Assembly (NCBI RefSeq): GCF_009914755.1
Contig: NC_060947.1
From: the human T2T-CHM13v2.0 reference genome, Homo sapiens
Strand: one strand, 5' to 3'
DNA: 64,000 bases
In this document: positions 5,686-40,949 of the stretch, piece by piece
How the letters are laid out: each line of letters begins with the position of its first letter
Numbering within the stretch: position 1 is the first letter of the stretch
Position numbers and translations under genes: made by a program
Notes under the pieces: generated by a model
What the model was told of the DNA's origin: nothing
The model's input: only the letters and a program-made list of their open reading frames with translations
Databases searched by the model: none

Positions 5686-6492
<807 letters not shown>

Positions 6493-7383
6493 GGAGGAGG
6501 AGCCAAGATGGCCGAATAGGAACAGCTCCGGTCTACAGCTCCCAGCGTGAGCGACGCAGAAGACGGGTGATTTCTGCATTTCCATCTGAGGTACCGGGTT
6601 CATCTCACTAGGGAGTGCCAGACAGTGGGCGCAGGCCAGTGTGTGTGCGCACCGTGCGCGAGCCGAAGCAGGGCGAGGCATTGCCTCACCTGGGAAGCGC
6701 AAGGGGTCAGGGAGTTCCCTTTCTGAGTCAAAGAAAGGGGTGACGGACGCACCTGGAAAATCGGGTCACTCCCACCCGAATATTGTGCTTTTCAGACTGG
6801 CTTAAGAAACGGCGCACCACGAGACTATATCCCACACCTGGCTCAGAGGGTCCTACGCCCACGGAATCTCGCTGATTGCTAGCACAGCAGTCTGAGATCA
6901 AACTGCAAGGTGGCAACGAGGCTGGGGGAGGGGCGCCCGCCATTGCCCAGGCTTGCTTAGGTAAACAAAGCAGCCGGGAAGCTCGAACTGGGTGGAGCCC
7001 ACCACAGCTCAAGGAGGCCTGCCTGCCTCTGTAGGCTCCACCTCTGGGGGCAGGGCACAGACAAACAAAAAGACAGCAGTAACCTCTGCAGACTTAAGTG
7101 TCCCTGTCTGACAGCTTTGAAGAGAGCAGTGGTTCTCCCAGCACGCAGCTGGAGATCTGAGAACAGGCAGACTGCCTCCTCAAGTGGGTCCCTGACCCCT
7201 GACCCCCGAGCAGCCTAACTGGGAGGCACACTGACACCTCACACGGCAGGGTATTCCAACAGACTTGCAGCTGAGGGTCCTGTCTGTTAGAAGGAAAACT
7301 AACAACCAGAAAGGACATCTACACCGAAAACCCATCTGTACATCACCATCATCAAAGACCAAAAGTAGATAAAAACCACAAAG
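6493..7383 (+). promoter_or_regulatory. L1 5'UTR: internal sense promoter and antisense promoter, CpG-rich
   Basis: YY1 site ccaagatggccg at ~6503-6514; L1HS 5'UTR sequence. Confidence 0.9.
6728..6943 (-). CDS. ORF0: LINE-1 ORF0, 71 aa (MAGAPPPASL...VRHPFL)
   Basis: ATG at 6943 (L1 nt ~451); last 71 codons of the 6728..7012 ORF; position and length match primate L1 ORF0. Confidence 0.85.
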   Translation of the reverse strand: MAGAPPPASLPPCSLISDCCASNQRDSVGVGPSEPGVGYSLVVRRFLSQSEKHNIRVGVTRFSRCVRHPFL

Positions 7384-8400
7384 ATGGGGAAAAAACAGAA
7401 CAGAAAAACTGGAAACTCTAAAACGCAGAGCGCCTCTCCTCCTCCAAAGGAACGCAGTTCCTCACCAGCAACGGAACAAAGCTGGATGGAGAATGACTTT
7501 GACGAGCTGAGAGAAGAAGGCTTCAGACGATCAAATTACTCTGAGCTACGGGAGGACATTCAAACCAAAGGCAAAGAAGTTGAAAACTTTGAAAAAAATT
7601 TAGAAGAATGTATAACTAGAATAACCAATACAGAGAAGTGCTTAAAGGAGCTGATGGAGCTGAAAACCAAGGCTCGAGAACTACGTGAAGAATGCAGAAG
7701 CCTCAGGAGCCGATGCGATCAACTGGAAGAAAGGGTATCAGCAATGGAAGATGAAATGAATGAAATGAAGCGAGAAGGGAAGTTTAGAGAAAAAAGAATA
7801 AAAAGAAACGAGCAAAGCCTCCAAGAAATATGGGACTATGTGAAAAGACCAAATCTACGTCTGATTGGTGTACCTGAAAGTGATGTGGAGAATGGAACCA
7901 AGTTGGAAAACACTCTGCAGGATATTATCCAGGAGAACTTCCCCAATCTAGCAAGGCAGGCCAACGTTCAGATTCAGGAAATACAGAGAACGCCACAAAG
8001 ATACTCCTCGAGAAGAGCAACTCCAAGACACATAATTGTCAGATTCACCAAAGTTGAAATGAAGGAAAAAATGTTAAGGGCAGCCAGAGAGAAAGGTCGG
8101 GTTACCCTCAAAGGAAAGCCCATCAGACTAACAGCGGATCTCTCGGCAGAAACCCTACAAGCCAGAAGAGAGTGGGGGCCAATATTCAACATTCTTAAAG
8201 AAAAGAATTTTCAACCCAGAATTTCATATCCAGCCAAACTAAGCTTCATAAGTGAAGGAGAAATAAAATACTTTATAGACAAGCAAATGCTGAGAGATTT
8301 TGTCACCACCAGGCCTGCCCTAAAAGAGCTCCTGAAGGAAGCGCTAAACCTGGAAAGGAACAACCGGTACCAGCCGCTGCAAAATCATGCCAAAATGTAA
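7384..8400 (+). CDS. L1 ORF1: LINE-1 ORF1p RNA-binding protein/nucleic acid chaperone, intact 338 aa
   Basis: MGKKQNRK start, coiled coil, REKG, ARR and YPAKLS motifs; canonical length. Confidence 0.97.
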   Translation: MGKKQNRKTGNSKTQSASPPPKERSSSPATEQSWMENDFDELREEGFRRSNYSELREDIQTKGKEVENFEKNLEECITRITNTEKCLKELMELKTKARELREECRSLRSRCDQLEERVSAMEDEMNEMKREGKFREKRIKRNEQSLQEIWDYVKRPNLRLIGVPESDVENGTKLENTLQDIIQENFPNLARQANVQIQEIQRTPQRYSSRRATPRHIIVRFTKVEMKEKMLRAAREKGRVTLKGKPIRLTADLSAETLQARREWGPIFNILKEKNFQPRISYPAKLSFISEGEIKYFIDKQMLRDFVTTRPALKELLKEALNLERNNRYQPLQNHAKM

Positions 8401-8439
8401 AGACCATCGAGACTAGGAAGAAACTGCATCAACTAATGA

Positions 8440-12290
<3,851 letters not shown>

Positions 12291-13050
12291 ACAATGAGAT
12301 CACATGGACACAGGAAGGGGAATATCACACTCTGGGGACTGTGGTGGGGTCGGGGGAGGGGGGAGGGATAGCATTGGGAGATATACCTAATGCTAGATGA
12401 CACGTTAGTGGGTGCAGCGCACCAGCATGGCACATGTATACATATGTAACTAACCTGCACAATGTGCACATGTACCCTAAAACTTAGAGTATAATAAAAA
12501 AAAAAATATTATTAACTCACAATATTAGCTCACTTAATATTAGTAGCTCACAAATTAATTCTTCATATATTGTGCCATTAACATAGATTTATACTTTATT
12601 TATGTATTTTGTTTTTTAAATTCTGTAAAAAATTCAAAAATGGTGTGACAAACCAAAGTTATCATGATATTGTATTTTAACTGTTTTTATTTATTTACCT
12701 TTATTGGAAACTTTATGTTATATATAGGATACATGTGAATATTTTTTACATGCATAGAATGTGTGATAATTAAGTGAGAGTATTTGGGGTAATCATCACC
12801 TTGGTTATTTATCATTTCTATGTGTTGGTATTATTTCAAGTCCTCTCTAATAGCTACTTTACAATATACAATATATTGTTGCTAACTATAGTCACCCTAC
12901 TCTGCTATTGAATATTGGAGCTTACTTATTTTAACTGTATATTTGTACCCACTAACCAGCCTCTCTTTATCCCCTCCTCATACCCACAGACCCTTCTCAC
13001 CCTCTGGAATCTATTATTTTATTGTTGATCTCCATGACATCACCTTTTTA

Positions 13051-36849: not shown

Positions 36850-38215
36850 ACATAAATAGCTAGATACATGAATATTGATACACATGCATATGTGGAATAG
36901 TGTAAAAATATATATTTTGAGTTCCTGGGAACAATCATACCCTAGTAGTCACCAGCACATTCATTGTTCAGATCTTTGATTCTAAATACCATTCTCCAAT
37001 AAAAGAAACTAGGGTTCCTTGGAGAAATGGCTGATTCCAGGAATGGAAGAGTAAAAATAAAAGATTAACTTGAAGAATCTTATTGTGCCAACAACAACAA
37101 AAAAGGCTTGAAAATTAAACGATAAGGGCATGTCCAAATGACACAAAAGCCAACCTGAAAGAGTTCCCAATTGCCAAGACTGAAACAATGTAAGAAACAT
37201 AGTAATCAACAATATTATTGGCATATAACCCTAATAATAAATATCCATGAGTCCATACTGCAATTAATAAATGTTTTAATAATTAAGTAAATGGGGAAAA
37301 TGGGCAGATATTCTTTGTAGGATAATTCTGACTAATAAATGTAGAAAGAATGGGAGAAATAGGAAAGCACCATTAAAACACCACAGTGATAATTACCACA
37401 GGCAAGATCCACAGGTGAATGATGCAATCAATAGGGAAAACTTTGAGAAACATTTTGTTTGCATAGCCTCAAAATACTCCCCCCAACACAAAAATATTTA
37501 CTAACTTCTGTAGTGGTTTGAACATACACTCCAAATATATCTGATACTCCTCCCCAAAGGAGGTAGAACTTAATTCACCTTCCTTGAATATGTACTGGAC
37601 TTAGTGTCTCCCTTCTAATAAAGTATAGAAAGAGAAAAATGTAATTTTACATTGGACGATTCAGGTAAACATCATCTAAAGTAAGTATCAAGTTTAGCTT
37701 CACAAATAATAATTAATTTTGATAGGTAAACCAAATATAATGTGACAGCAAAGGAGATATTCCATCTCTGTTCTTGTTCCCAATAATCTATAATGTCAGG
37801 CTAATCATAAGACAACACCAGACAAATTGAAAATTGAGTAACACTGTATTAAATACCTAACCATTATTCTTCAAAAGTTTCACAGTCATGAAAGACATGG
37901 AAAGACTGAGGAAGTATCACAGATTGGAAGAGGCTAAGGAGACATGTCAACCAAATGTAAAATGGGACACTGGATTAGATCTTTGAACAAAGAAAGGGCA
38001 CTAGTAAAATTTTAAAAAACTAGTATAATATGAATAGTTTGCTGTTTAGTTAATAGCAACATACCACTGCTAAATTCTTAGTTTTGATAAATGTACCCTG
38101 ATTATGTAAGCTTCTGTTAAAGTTAACAGAAGCTGGGCAAAGAGTATACAGGAATTTTGTATGCTGTCTTTACAACTCTCATGTAAACCTACAATTATTT
38201 TGAAATAAAAAGCTA
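36850..38215 (+). mobile_element. L1MC3/4-like 3'UTR
   Basis: tctaaataccattctccaataaaag...ccttggagaaatggctgattcc...aaatatccatgagtccatactg. Confidence 0.8.
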
Positions 38216-38475
38216 AAAAAGCATTATAAGCCAATGATGCAATAGACTACTTCTCAGTAATTAAAAAAAAACTATTGATGCATGCAACAACATGGATGGA
38301 TTTTCTTTTTATTGTTGTTGTTATTTTTATTTTTTATTTATTTTACTTCAAGTTCTGGGATACATGTGCTGAACGTGGAGGTATGTTACCTAGGTATACA
38401 TGTGCCATGGTGGTTTGCTGCACCTATCAACCCATCATCTAGGTTTTAAGCCCTGCATACATGTAGGACAAATAC

Positions 38476-38574
38476 ATGTTATCTAGTTGAGGGATTCACT
38501 GTAGAGAGGTGAAGATCCCCTCAGTCTTTAACTTAAGAGGTGAATGCTGGGTAGCTTTACAGTGATATTATAGT
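38476..38574 (-). other. NUMT: ancient mitochondrial fragment (COII 3' end/spacer, tRNA-Lys, ATP8 5' end)
   Basis: Minus strand actataatat-CACTGTAAAGCT...ACAGTGA-atccctcaactagata follows the mtDNA order COII-K-ATP8; human ATP8 begins ATGCCCCAACTAAATAC. Confidence 0.88.
38496..38564 (-). pseudogene. MT-TK: Mitochondrial tRNA-Lys pseudogene (MT-TK-like, 69 nt, anticodon now CTT)
   Basis: cactgtaaagctacccagcattcacctcttaagttaaagactgaggggatcttcacctctctacagtga; 7-bp acceptor stem cactgta/tacagtg; similar to human CACTGTAAAGCTAACTTAGCATTAACCTTTTAAGTTAAAGATTAAGAGAACCAACACCTCTTTACAGTGA. Confidence 0.88.
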
Positions 38575-38718
38575 GCATTAGGACAAATACCTAATGCATG
38601 CAGAGCTTAAAACCTAGATGACGGGTTGATAGGTGCAGCAAACCACCATGGCACACCAAGATCTGTGCTTAATGAAAGAAGCCAGACCCAGAAGAAAATT
38701 CCATTGATAAGAAGTTCT

Positions 38719-38952
38719 GCAATGAGAACACATGGACACAGGGAGGGTAACATCACACACCAGGGCCTGTCAGGGGGTGGGGGACAAGGGGAGGGAGAGC
38801 ATTAGGACAAATAACTAAAGCATGCGGGGCTCAAAACTTAGATGACGGGTTGATAGCTGCAGCAAACCACCAGGGCACATGTATACCTATGTAACAAACC
38901 TGCACGTTCTGCACATATATGTCAGAACTTAAAATAAAAAATAAATAAACAA
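38719..38952 (+). mobile_element. L1PA7/8 5'-truncated 3'UTR insertion
   Basis: L1 3'UTR plus A tail; TSD ataagaagttct at 38707-38718 and 38953-38964. Confidence 0.92.
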
Positions 38953-40949
38953 ATAAGAAGTTCTAGAACAGGTTAAATAATATGTATTTATGGAAATCAG
39001 AATAGTGGTTGCTGTTGGGGGTGAGAATTGATTGAATAAAAATAAGAGAGAACTTTCAGGGGTGATTGGAATGTTTTATATCTTGATTCAAGTGCTGGTT
39101 ACATGTGTGCTTATGTCTGTCAGGAGGGATCATCTGTTCTCGTGGGATATTTGAATTTCACTTTATGTAAATAGTATATCCTTAGAATGGATTAGATGCC
39201 TTGCTTTTAGCAAAATGTGAACCCTACAAAGTGTTAGGATGGTTGAAATTGATATTTATTGCCGTATCTTGCCTGTAAGTCAATTTTTTAACATCAATTA
39301 GTAAGCATCATCTACTCTCCACAATTTCTATATTGTTGGTCAATAGAAAATAGACTCCCATGGCAGTATTCACACTTCACCAGTCTATTGAACTTATTTC
39401 AACTACGTGTATTCTATTGTGTTTCCACTCTCAGGCTCATTCATGGATTTCTATTCAGATGAATGCTTTCTGAGCATTCATTTCATTTCTTTTAATTTTT
39501 TCCCTCATAGCCCTATTGTAATCTATCTTACCAAATAATTGCTTTATCCACCAAATCATTATAATAAAATGTCAAGTTCACTTGGCTAACTGTATATCGA
39601 AAGTCACCATCATTTGCAATAGTTTGTGCAAGAATTATGTTAGGAGACTAAGGAGTTTCATATATATGACACATATTCAGGCCATAACGGCCTTGCAAAT
39701 TTTAGCTTTTCAGTTAAATAGTTGTGTATGTGAGGATGCCATGCTTTTTTAAATATGGTACAATAAAACCACATTGTAAGATGCAGTAAATCAGCATCAT
39801 TATTATTTACATTCTTATGTGCACTTGAAAATATCTCAATAGAATGTTGCAATGACTCAGCAACAATAGGAATCATGACATTTCTTTGACAATTTAATTT
39901 TAATGTGTCATTAATTTTCAGATATGCGTTTAGTTAAAAGCAATTAATGCTTAATTGCAGCATAACCTGAATAATTTAGAAATGCAAATTAGTACAGAAA
40001 GCAAACGTGTGTGTTCATTAATTTCTTTGATATCACCATCTGTTTAATTTAAAAATTGCATTTTGCTGAATGACAGCTTGCTAACTGTATAAATGGTTTT
40101 CTGAATGGAAAATATCTATTGCAATGGAGGTCAGCATCTGATAAAATTTAAGTTTGTACATAATTGTGTTATATAAACAAATTAGACTATTTTCGAATTT
40201 GAGAAAATTTATGAGAAATTTATTGAGAATTTATGAGTTTTTTTATTTTTGAGAAATTTTTGACAAAATTATTGACAATATATATAATTTTATATAGTAG
40301 AAAACATAACTTTATCATTTAAAGAAAAATACTGCTCATTAGACAAAATACAACAATTATAATGCACTGCTGCAATTTTAAACTTTAGGATTTTCAGTTA
40401 CTTTATTATTTGTTTTCCTTTTGTTTTTATTTTTGCATAATTAATTTTTATGTATTTATTAAATTATAACTAGAAAGTGGATATTAAAATTTTAAACCTG
40501 GAAGGAAGAAAGAGCAATAAGTGGTTTTAGATTCTTGTGATTTTAAAACTATAGATTATGTAATTGAAGATATTTGAAACCTTGTGGAAATTATTCATAC
40601 CTTGGGGATTCTTTCTAACTCATACTCTTTTAAGAATCAAAGTAGAAATAAATTGTCTTGCAGGTTTGTGATGTATAAAATAGGGGGATTTTTTGAAAAG
40701 AACCCAGAAGCATTAAACAGAAGCAGATATTTCTTATCAGTGCTGTATTGTGTATCATTGATCTTGTTAATGTTATAAAACAATCAGAGTTTTAAAATTA
40801 CTATGAAATTAGAACATGCATATTATAAAAATTGACATAGCAAATACACATAAATTAGATCAAGTCCATAAAAATGTCACCATACATATTATACATGTAG
40901 TATGCGTATATGTGTATGTGTGCACATGCACATGGACAGAGGGTTGTTG

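What the first reader, a model, noticed from the sequence alone, without database searches (positions are those of the whole stretch)
38303..38655. Mitochondrial tRNA-Lys fragment captured between inverted L1 3'UTR arms
Seen: poly-T and antisense L1PA7/8 3' end (38303-38462), 12 bp of sense L1 (taggacaaatac, 38464-38475), ~100 bp mitochondrial COII-end/tRNA-Lys/ATP8-start (38476-38574), then sense L1 again (38575-38655) repeating taggacaaatac. Segments 38401-38462 and 38594-38655 are ~62-bp inverted copies, so the tRNA lies in a hairpin loop. The host L1ME rejoins with no visible TSD. Established: L1 twin priming, template switching to cellular RNAs, and NUMT capture at double-strand breaks. 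Inference: a single event in which L1 integration or repair captured mtDNA, or an unprocessed polycistronic mt transcript (no CCA, flanks retained). That would be a physical link between retrotransposition and NUMT formation.
Basis: partly seen in the sequence, partly recalled or inferred. Interest (0 to 1): 0.8.

Follow-up and report, generated by a model that had tools for sequence, protein, structure and literature searches.

The report
Mitochondrial DNA patch inside inverted L1
A 98-base piece of ancient mitochondrial DNA carrying the tRNA-Lys gene sits exactly where two oppositely oriented copies of an L1 retrotransposon tail meet, which is a neat fossil of messy DNA-end joining but not proof that L1 insertion and mitochondrial DNA capture were one event.

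Summary
Between the two halves of an old interspersed repeat lies one inserted block, about 38305-38655. It consists of a T-rich tail and an antisense L1 3' end (to 38462), then G, a 12-nt sense L1 word, ATGT, and 98 nt of mitochondrial sequence on the minus strand (38480-38577). The 12-nt word then recurs and sense L1 runs to 38655. The mitochondrial piece holds the last 10 nt of COX2, a 2-nt spacer, tRNA-Lys and the first ~16 nt of ATP8.

The arms are 62 nt and 95% complementary. The host rejoins with at most 1 bp duplicated or lost.

The NUMT (nuclear copy of mitochondrial DNA) is already catalogued by Tsuji 2012 as older than the human-rhesus split. No other nuclear NUMT is a plausible donor; the best match is 90.5%.

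New here: the inversion junction lies on a hairpin intrinsic to this L1 3'UTR. Without the NUMT the locus would be a ~66-bp-arm palindrome with a 7-nt loop, and the 12-nt repeat covers that centre.

All junction features also fit ordinary NUMT capture. I lean slightly to one complex event (~0.47) over a later break at the palindrome centre (~0.40). Primate orthologues would decide; they are not available here. Interest is moderate.

The parts
38130..38304 (.). Left half of the host repeat. It is an old interspersed repeat which, from recall, looks like the 3' end of an L1M element. It ends in ...GGATTTT.
   Evidence: The genome search returned 39 other matches at 75-92% identity (40 rows including the window itself; 42 candidates, 40 scored). 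Paralogues L041, L044 and L047 align up to the break.
38305..38345 (-). Degenerate A-rich tail of the L1 insertion, seen as a T-rich run on the + strand. The left boundary is uncertain by 1-2 nt because it merges with host Ts.
   Evidence: Read directly. It lines up with the A-tails of 29 genomic L1 3' ends.
38346..38462 (-). L1 3' UTR end bearing the tail (the 'left arm'), antisense on the + strand. This is the product of the first cDNA.
   Evidence: It is 93-96% identical to the 39 scored genomic copies (1894 candidates). It is 78% identical to the 3' end of the full-length L1 in this window. It differs from the majority of 29 copies at 5 of ~117 positions.
38463..38463 (.). One extra base (G) between the left arm and the 12-nt word. 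It forms a bulge in the inferred palindrome.
   Evidence: Read directly and compared with the canonical L1 order.
38464..38475 (+). Copy 1 of TAGGACAAATAC, which is sense L1. It comprises 4 nt of the intrinsic L1 hairpin stem, the 7-nt loop and 1 nt more.
   Evidence: D2. The hairpin GCATTAGG/ACAAATA/CCTAATGC is visible.
38476..38479 (.). ATGT, of unassigned origin. One option is a snap-back copy, since ACATGTA at 38459-38465 and TACATGT at 38473-38479 are reverse complements. The other option is ATP8 sequence that later lost 5 nt.
   Evidence: The fold shows the 7-bp stem. The alignment shows CATGT in the NUMT homologues 5-6 nt further into ATP8.
38480..38495 (-). First ~16 nt of mitochondrial ATP8. 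The start codon position reads ATC here and ATG in all 20 aligned NUMTs (21 loci tried).
   Evidence: 38493 is private. ATP8 is identified in L003 by Pfam PF00895.
38496..38565 (-). Mitochondrial tRNA-Lys pseudogene with the anticodon changed to CTT. There is no CCA.
   Evidence: ARAGORN -mtmam and -mt both call it at 38495-38565. In one search, 38537 G is private and all 20 other NUMTs have A there.
38566..38577 (-). A 2-nt spacer plus the last 10 nt of COX2, including the stop codon (TAA, 38568-38570 on the minus strand). The final GCA also matches L1 (GCATTAGG), giving 3 nt of microhomology.
   Evidence: There is an ungapped 96-nt match to L003, whose COX2 frame stops at the aligned position. 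L007 and L008 read GTGCAG here.
38578..38655 (+). Sense L1 3' UTR segment (the 'right arm'). It starts with copy 2 of the 12-nt word at 38579-38590, ends at GGCACA with no tail, and joins directly to the host.
   Evidence: D1 is 89% identical to the neighbouring L1, and I2 is 95% complementary to the left arm. It has 2 differences in ~84 nt from the majority of 29 copies.
38656..38718 (.). Right half of the host repeat. It is interrupted again at 38719 by a separate L1.
   Evidence: it aligns to paralogues L041, L044 and L047 directly after the point where the left half stops.

Best explanation
One complex integration and repair event.

Proposed steps:
1. A break in an old repeat opened at a T-rich site, with ends blunt to within 1 bp.
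2. L1 RNA bridged the break. The left end primed on the A-tail (first cDNA). The right end primed internally at ...GGCACA (second cDNA), so the two L1 pieces face each other.
3. The two cDNA tails could pair only through the 8-nt stem of a hairpin intrinsic to this L1 3' UTR (GCATTAGG / CCTAATGC). This fixes the inversion junction on that hairpin.
4. Joining was by microhomology-primed synthesis that started, aborted and restarted. First, 8-12 nt were copied from the second cDNA, giving copy 1 of TAGGACAAATAC. Then 4 nt were added. Then 98 nt of mitochondrial nucleic acid were taken in as filler, more likely a DNA fragment than RNA.
5. The end re-paired through GCA with the tip of the second cDNA and was extended to completion, giving copy 2.

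The result has no function. It is a neutral fossil, and the filler widened the spacer of a would-be palindrome from 7 to 131 nt.

Shown: the anatomy, the mitochondrial origin, the intrinsic hairpin, the lack of a donor, and an age older than the rhesus split. Inferred: the order of steps, the single event, and the enzymes involved.
For: - The whole block sits at one host break, with at most 1 bp duplicated and nothing lost. The NUMT therefore lies inside an insertion whose junction had to be made by end joining anyway.
- The L1 event is itself non-canonical. It has no target-site duplication, and 62 of the ~84 nt of the inverted segment duplicate the other arm. Complex joins tend to carry filler.
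- Ten of 90 published NUMT insertions carried a second captured DNA at one fusion point (PMC2567098, passages).
- The loop ACAAATA is in sense orientation in both copies of the 12-mer. This rules out simple snap-back of the first cDNA and requires a second, independent cDNA.
- The junction lies on the intrinsic hairpin. Two other genomic copies of this L1 type carry inverted duplications at the same hairpin: L082 with 38-nt arms, 95% complementarity and a 7-nt loop, and L083 with 18-27-nt arms.
- The direct repeat of 12-16 nt is longer than the 1-11 nt reported for NUMT target duplications. It looks like aborted templated synthesis.
- Private changes are few and similar in both parts: 3 of 98 positions in the mitochondrial piece and 7 of ~201 in the arms.
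- The mitochondrial sequence type matches a star-like burst of seven NUMTs with terminal branches of 0.063-0.108. L1 copies of this type lie about 4-10% from their majority. The two ages are therefore compatible.
- The mitochondrial piece has the same orientation as the tailed L1.
Against: - No feature excludes a later insertion. NUMT capture with a flanking duplication (17 of 71 events), microhomology and a few added bases is the published norm.
- Where timing could be resolved, the neighbouring retrotransposon predated the NUMT in 93 of 103 cases and shared its branch in only 10 (PMC3467031, passages).
- Taking in 98 nt between two single-stranded cDNA tails is long for templated end joining.
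- Dating has almost no power with so few sites.
- The largest catalogue of L1 chimeras does not mention mitochondrial partners in its main text (0 occurrences).
- 0 of the 21 other tRNA-Lys-bearing NUMT loci fetched has an L1 3' end within 1.5 kb, so there is no second example.
Confidence: 0.47

Rival explanations
1. Two steps. A twin-primed L1 insertion first produced a near-perfect palindrome with ~66-bp arms and a 7-nt loop. Later, whether within generations or after millions of years, a staggered double-strand break opened at its centre, by chance or because short-loop palindromes are fragile. Ordinary end joining then patched it with a free mtDNA fragment. Filling in the 12-16-nt overhangs gave the direct repeat.
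For: - The duplicated 12 nt are exactly the centre of the inferred palindrome: 4 nt of stem, the 7-nt loop and 1 nt more.
- All three junction features are standard for NUMT insertions. These are a target duplication (1-11 nt in 17 of 71), microhomology of 1-7 bp, and short added bases (PMC2567098).
- In resolvable cases the retrotransposon came first in 93 of 103 (PMC3467031).
- Rough expectation, using my own assumption of about 1e5 L1 inversion junctions together with the 610 NUMT events of Tsuji 2012: 0.01-0.3 chance co-localisations genome-wide. This is not negligible for a genome-wide scan.
Against: - The duplication of 12-16 nt is at or beyond the top of the published range.
- NUMTs lying inside retrotransposons are rare, 10 of 557.
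- A palindrome of the same L1 type with the same 7-nt loop and 38-nt arms has survived unbroken at L082, so a centre break is not obligatory.
- It needs a second break within ~16 bp of the first join.
Confidence: 0.4
2. RNA version of the single event. The L1 reverse transcriptase switched template from the L1 intermediates onto an unprocessed mitochondrial H-strand transcript (COX2-tRNA-Lys-ATP8), copied 98 nt and switched back. This probability is contained within the single-event figure above.
For: - On the + strand the piece is the complement of the sense transcript. That is the polarity expected if the growing first-cDNA strand copied RNA.
- The mitochondrial piece is co-oriented with the tailed L1, as in template-switch chimeras (PMC13174262, passages).
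- A reverse transcriptase is by definition at the site.
- Mitochondrial cDNA as a break patch has been raised as a speculation (PMC5110952, passages).
Against: - The piece crosses both tRNA processing sites.
- It has no CCA and no A-tail, and it does not end at any RNA end.
- Orientation alone is a coin flip.
- Mitochondrial RNA is enclosed in the organelle.
- No mitochondrial partner appears in the main text of the L1 chimera catalogue.
Confidence: 0.1
3. The filler was copied from an existing nuclear NUMT, either its DNA or its transcript, and not from the organelle.
For: Eight larger NUMTs are 87.5-90.5% identical. That level is what a copy made tens of millions of years ago would show today.
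Against: - The piece shares none of the private variants of any of the 20 aligned NUMTs (21 loci tried; L034 gave no hit), and none shares its 3 private bases.
- The seven closest form a star with very short internal branches of <=0.011. A donor would have had to be copied right after its own insertion, or since lost.
Confidence: 0.05

Closest known systems
L1 twin-priming inversions (Ostertag & Kazazian 2001, recalled, not held; duplications at the internal breakpoint are noted in PMC12350158, figure legend passage)
   Same: A tailed 3' segment sits at a T-rich site, with a second L1 segment in the opposite orientation on its 5' side. The junction shows microhomology.
   Different: There is no target-site duplication. 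Most of the inverted segment (62 of ~84 nt) duplicates the other arm instead of lying upstream of it. Foreign DNA sits in the junction.
L1 chimeric insertions with cellular RNAs (U6, 5S, tRNA halves, 28S and others; PMC13174262, passages)
   Same: A non-L1 sequence is fused to an L1 3' end. Template switching or twin priming is invoked to explain it.
   Different: In those chimeras the partner sits at the 5' end, shares a 9-19-bp target duplication with the L1, and matches known RNA ends such as tRNA halves. Here the partner is internal, mitochondrial and unprocessed, and no target duplication frames the block. The main text of that paper does not mention mitochondrial partners.
Ordinary NUMT capture at double-strand breaks by end joining (PMC2567098, passages)
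   Same: The mtDNA piece is short. There is microhomology at one side, a few extra bases at the other, a flanking duplication of target sequence, and no loss of target.
   Different: The target is the exact centre of an L1 inverted repeat. The duplication is 12-16 nt against the published 1-11 nt.
Templated insertions of polymerase theta-type end joining (PMC4912351, search listing and start of abstract only)
   Same: There are direct and snap-back copies of nearby sequence at a junction between 3' tails, made by repeated priming at microhomologies.
   Different: A 98-nt stretch templated or captured from another molecule is much longer than, from recall, is usual. No enzyme can be assigned from the sequence.
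Association of NUMTs with retrotransposons (Tsuji et al. 2012, PMC3467031, passages and supplementary table)
   Same: This very NUMT is in their list. They proposed, as speculation, that L1 endonuclease breaks mediate NUMT insertion.
   Different: They report flank statistics, not a junction-level chimera. They list this NUMT as 85 bp, intergenic and unique, with no mention of its L1 context.

Membership tests
NUMT (nuclear copy of mitochondrial DNA) | Significant sequence homology to mtDNA | tested here: met
   The test is indirect because chrM is not in the held genome. The piece is 87.5-90.5% identical over 94-99 nt to eight loci. One of them, L003, carries COX1, COX2, ATP8 and ATP6 under genetic code 2. 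The genome-wide E-value is 7e-29.
NUMT (nuclear copy of mitochondrial DNA) | Colinear with the mitochondrial gene order across gene borders | tested here: met
   COX2 stop, 2-nt spacer, tRNA-Lys and ATP8 start appear in the same register as in the larger NUMTs. ARAGORN calls an mt tRNA-Lys.
NUMT (nuclear copy of mitochondrial DNA) | Listed in a published NUMT catalogue | tested here: met
   The row reads hg18 chrX:86995039-86995123, mt 8296-8382, minus strand, age (a), unique. Age (a) means after the mouse split and before the rhesus split. The match to this window is inferred from the same mt segment, strand and length. It is also supported by an hg18-to-T2T offset of ~0.71 Mb, close to the ~0.70 Mb of a second chrX NUMT.
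L1 twin-priming inversion | 3' segment with an A-tail at a T-rich nick site, plus a 5' segment in inverse orientation | tested here: met
L1 twin-priming inversion | Target-site duplication framing the whole insertion | tested here: not met
   At most 1 bp is duplicated. The host spacing equals that of paralogue L041.
L1 twin-priming inversion | The inverted segment comes from L1 sequence upstream of the 3' segment, with only a small overlap or gap | tested here: not met
   62 of the ~84 nt of the inverted segment overlap the 3' segment (I2).
L1/cellular-RNA chimera by template switching | The partner is derived from RNA, shown by processed ends, CCA or an A-tail | tested here: not met
   The piece spans both tRNA processing sites and has no CCA.
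L1/cellular-RNA chimera by template switching | Partner and L1 appear on the same branch in orthologous loci | not testable with these tools
   No primate genomes are held. The locus was not found in the supplement of PMC13174262 when searching four coordinate prefixes. Those prefixes rest on my approximate coordinate conversion.
Ordinary NUMT insertion by end joining | Microhomology of 1-7 bp and/or up to 5 added bases at the fusion points | tested here: met
   GCA is shared by L1 and the COX2 end at the right junction. Four unassigned bases sit at the left junction.
Ordinary NUMT insertion by end joining | Target duplication within the reported range of 1-11 nt | tested here: inconclusive
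   It is 12 nt exact, or up to 16 nt if CAT/GCAT is counted. This is just outside the reported range.
Endonuclease-independent L1 insertion | No target duplication, plus a missing tail or 3' truncation, at a site unlike the L1 endonuclease motif (criteria recalled, not read here) | tested here: inconclusive
   No duplication: met. However, an A-rich tail is present and the site ends in TTTT.

The most novel reading that the evidence does not exclude
The L1 reverse transcriptase, while resolving a twin-primed insertion, jumped onto an unprocessed mitochondrial polycistronic transcript and copied 98 nt of it. This NUMT would then be a retro-copy made by L1, and part of the primate NUMT burst would be L1-dependent rather than simple mtDNA capture.
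Probability: 0.1. Interest if true: 0.75.

Novelty: new variant of a known kind. Interest (0 to 1): 0.4.

Why it matters
NUMTs are thought to enter chromosomes as DNA filler at double-strand breaks. A statistical association with retrotransposons has prompted the speculation that L1-made breaks are involved (PMC3467031).

A locus where the mitochondrial piece lies inside the joint of a single L1 insertion would be the first junction-level example of that link that my searches found. It would also suggest that catalogues of L1 chimeras should screen for mitochondrial partners. If instead the NUMT came later, the locus is an ordinary NUMT that happened to hit, or stabilised, a small palindrome.

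There is also a by-product. This older L1 3' UTR carries an 8-bp-stem hairpin that seems to be a recurrent site of strand switching: three loci show inverted joins there.

Tried and rejected
- **Chance resemblance to a tRNA.** Rejected. Default ARAGORN and Rfam (its one match, Bacilli-1 at E 9.9, is noise) find nothing. Mitochondrial-mode ARAGORN does call it, and homology to NUMTs flanked by COX2 and ATP8 is strong.
- **Snap-back of the first cDNA on the intrinsic hairpin as the origin of the right arm.** Rejected. The 7-nt loop is in sense orientation in both copies of the 12-mer.
- **Snap-back of the second cDNA.** Rejected. The left arm runs on past GGCACA to the tail.
- **Right arm copied from the neighbouring L1 at 38719-38952.** Rejected. 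It is 89% identical to that L1 against 95% to the left arm.
- **Retro-copy of a source locus that already held the chimera.** No other genomic match covers the L1/mt junctions (only the self hit spans 1-127).
- **Dating to separate one event from two.** No power. The arms differ from the majority of 29 copies at 5 of ~117 and 2 of ~84 positions. That majority is biased towards the query, because the copies were chosen by likeness to the left arm. The NUMT has 3 private sites in 98.
- **Looking for bare palindromes at the same hairpin.** The exact pattern gave 2 hits, which are one PAR1 locus on X and Y. It proved to be an L1 with a flipped loop, not a palindrome. A 35-place pattern with 2 mismatches gave 2 loci. 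These pattern searches are narrow and are not a census.
- **A second L1-NUMT case.** 0 of 21 other fetched NUMT loci have an L1 3' end within 1.5 kb. No genome-wide scan was done.
- **Ostertag & Kazazian 2001.** Not held.
- **Print searches for an L1-NUMT chimera.** Searches found no description of one.
- **Not used.** Complex prediction, protein searches and structure tools were not relevant and were not run.

Full report
**What is there**

The window is human T2T chrX:86,242,001-86,306,000. The held genome has 24 contigs and lacks chrM. Reading 37800-39200 and the repeat scan give this order on the + strand:

- Host repeat, up to about 38304.
- A T-rich run, 38305-38345.
- Antisense L1 3' end, 38346-38462.
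- One G.
- TAGGACAAATAC, 38464-38475.
- ATGT.
- A 98-nt foreign piece, 38480-38577.
- T, then TAGGACAAATAC again at 38579-38590, running on as sense L1 to GGCACA at 38655.
- Host repeat again.

The arms 38401-38462 and 38594-38655 are 62 nt and 95% complementary. As a single strand the region would fold at -84.7 kcal/mol, against -28.4 +/- 3.4 for 200 shuffles.

**The L1 parts**

The window holds a full-length element at 6490-12518. Its open frames carry the three L1 ORF1p domains, the endonuclease and the reverse transcriptase.

Its 3' end, just after the ORF2 stop, aligns to both arms and to a third L1 tail at 38719-38952. The arms are therefore L1 3' UTR.

They are of an older type. They carry about 17 nt (GCATGCAGAGCTTAAAAC...) that the young element lacks. 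The genome search found 1894 candidates, and the 39 scored copies were 93-96% identical to the left arm. I could not verify the name L1PA7/8, because no repeat library is held.

**The mitochondrial part**

- A search of the own genome with 38464-38590 gave 22 other matches. All of them start inside the foreign piece and none covers the L1/mt joints.
- Eight are 87.5-90.5% identical and six more are 80.6-83.7% identical.
- One of the eight, L003, read with the vertebrate mitochondrial code, gives COX1, both COX2 domains, then the homologous segment, then ATP8 and ATP6.
- ARAGORN in mitochondrial mode finds tRNA-Lys with anticodon CTT on the minus strand at 38495-38565. Default ARAGORN and Rfam find nothing.
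- The ungapped alignment to L003 places the COX2 stop at 38568-38570. The ATP8 start codon falls at 38493-38495, where it reads ATC here.
- The piece is therefore 10 nt of COX2, 2 nt of spacer, tRNA-Lys and about 16 nt of ATP8. It has no CCA and both flanks are present.
- It is the only piece from the mitochondrial regions carried by the four NUMT loci used as queries (COX1-ATP6 in L003) found in the window.

**It is a catalogued NUMT**

The hg18 table of Tsuji et al. 2012 lists chrX:86995039-86995123, mt 8296-8382, minus strand, age (a), intergenic, unique (supplement 3, part 4). Age (a) means after the human-mouse split and before the human-rhesus split.

The identification with this locus is an inference. 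It rests on the same mitochondrial segment, strand and length. It also rests on an hg18-to-T2T offset of about 0.71 Mb, close to the 0.70 Mb of another chrX NUMT seen in both lists. Their entry misses the 12 nt on the COX2 side and says nothing about the L1 context.

**Host and boundaries**

The flanks are two halves of one old repeat. The search returned 39 other diverged matches.

In paralogue L041, 11 nt separate the motifs GAAT and TGTGC. In the window, after removing the block, 11 nt also separate GGAT and TGTGC. The block therefore went into one break with at most 1 bp duplicated and nothing lost. The left host end finishes in TTTT, a plausible primer for the A-tail.

**No donor, and the age**

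In a 98-column alignment with 20 NUMT homologues (21 tried; L034 gave no hit), the piece has 3 bases found in none of them: 38493, 38537 and 38542. It shares none of their private variants.

Seven of the closest NUMTs form a star. Their terminal branches are 0.063-0.108 and their internal branches at most 0.011. The piece belongs to that mitochondrial sequence type.

L1 copies of the arm type lie roughly 4-10% from their majority in 394 columns that were not used to select them. The arms differ from the majority of 29 copies at 5 of ~117 and 2 of ~84 positions. That majority is biased towards the left arm.

Everything is compatible with one epoch before the rhesus split. The counts are too small to separate one event from two.

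**The key structural point**

This L1 3' UTR contains an intrinsic hairpin: GCATTAGG, a loop ACAAATA, then CCTAATGC. The inversion junction sits on it.

Without the mitochondrial piece and one 12-mer, the locus reads left arm, G, TAGG, ACAAATA, CCTA, right arm. That is a palindrome with about 66-bp arms and a 7-nt loop.

The loop is in sense orientation in both 12-mers, so it belongs to the right arm. This excludes self-priming of the first cDNA and calls for a second cDNA primed from the right host end, that is, twin priming. The two cDNAs have the same polarity and can pair only through the 8-nt stem, which explains where they joined.

Two other genomic copies of this L1 type have inverted duplications at the same hairpin:

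- L082 has 38-nt arms, 95% complementary, with a 7-nt loop.
- L083 has 18-27-nt arms.

An exact-pattern hit in PAR1 turned out to be an L1 with a flipped loop, not a palindrome. These searches are narrow.

**The joints of the mitochondrial piece**

- Right joint: GCA is shared between the COX2 end (L007 and L008 read GTGCAG) and L1 (GCATTAGG).
- Left joint: ATGT is unassigned. It may be a snap-back copy, since ACATGTA and TACATGT form a 7-bp inverted repeat. Or it may be ATP8 sequence that later lost 5 nt.
- The 12-nt direct repeat extends to 16 nt if CAT/GCAT is counted. It covers the palindrome centre.

**One event or two**

For one event:

- The joint had to be made by end joining anyway.
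- The L1 insertion is itself irregular. It has no target duplication, and 62 of ~84 nt of the inverted segment overlap the other arm.
- 10 of 90 published NUMT insertions carried a second captured DNA.
- The repeat is longer than the published 1-11 nt.
- An aborted and restarted templated synthesis explains the repeat without extra assumptions.

For two events:

- Target duplications occur in 17 of 71 NUMT insertions, alongside microhomology and a few added bases, so these features are the norm for NUMT capture.
- The retrotransposon predated the neighbouring NUMT in 93 of 103 resolvable cases.
- A short-loop palindrome is a plausible fragile site.
- With 610 NUMT events and an assumed 1e5 L1 inversion junctions (my assumption), chance alone gives 0.01-0.3 such co-localisations genome-wide.

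Against fragility, L082 shows that a smaller palindrome of the same kind has survived. I put one event at about 0.47, of which about 0.10 is the RNA-templated version. Two steps gets 0.40, a nuclear NUMT donor 0.05, and the rest is other.

**RNA or DNA**

Orientation fits copying of the sense H-strand transcript by the growing first-cDNA strand. However, the piece crosses both tRNA processing sites and has no CCA or tail, so I favour a DNA fragment.

**Literature**

The following are passages only unless stated otherwise.

- PMC3467031 reports retrotransposon enrichment near NUMTs and finds only 10 of 557 NUMTs inside retrotransposons. It speculates on a role for the L1 endonuclease.
- PMC2567098 describes the junction patterns.
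- PMC13174262 catalogues L1 chimeras. Its main text has 0 occurrences of 'mitochondri' or 'NUMT', and four coordinate prefixes were not found in its supplements.
- PMC12350158 notes twin-priming insertions with duplications at the inversion breakpoint.
- PMC5110952 raises mitochondrial cDNA as a possible patch.
- PMC4912351, PMC3300023 and PMC4189335 were seen only as search listings.

Searches found no description of a NUMT at an L1 inversion junction.

**Verdict**

The NUMT is already known. The L1 context and the hairpin-centred junction are new descriptive detail. The single-event reading is plausible but unproven, and the interest is moderate.

Noticed in passing
window 38707-38964: A separate, canonical 5'-truncated L1 3' end lies at 38719-38952, sense on the + strand, with an A-rich tail. 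It is framed by a perfect 12-bp target-site duplication, ATAAGAAGTTCT (38707-38718 and 38953-38964), 63 bp downstream of the chimeric block. It forms a 138-nt, 83% complementary inverted repeat with the left arm.
   Followed up: partly
window 6490-12518: This is a full-length young-type L1. It has an ORF1 frame of 343 aa open from stop to stop. ORF2 is split into two overlapping frames of 711 and 640 aa. The endonuclease and the start of the reverse transcriptase are in the first, and the rest of the reverse transcriptase is in the second.
   Followed up: partly
L082 (G000:C12:11119991-11120025) and L083 (G000:C16:25746778-25746812): Two other L1 3' ends of the older type carry inverted duplications centred on the same intrinsic hairpin, GCATTAGG-loop-CCTAATGC. 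L082 has 38-nt arms, 95% complementary, with a 7-nt loop. L083 has repeated 18-27-nt arms. This suggests the hairpin is a recurrent site of strand switching during L1 reverse transcription.
   Followed up: partly
L080/L081 (G000:C23:1498041 and C24:1560958, i.e. PAR1 on X and Y): This L1 3' end has the 7-nt hairpin loop in the opposite orientation to the canonical copies, and about 8 nt missing beside it. There is no palindrome.
   Followed up: no
L002-L007 and L009 (seven autosomal loci): Seven multi-kilobase NUMTs covering COX1 to ATP6 form a star-like group. Pairwise distances are 10-16%, terminal branches 0.063-0.108 and internal branches at most 0.011. This looks like a burst of insertions or early duplications from one mitochondrial sequence type. 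L008 is a distinct, later type at 19-21%.
   Followed up: partly
window 38109-38134: A perfect 12-nt inverted repeat with a 2-nt spacer (AGCTTCTGTTAA / TTAACAGAAGCT) lies inside the host repeat (I8).
   Followed up: no
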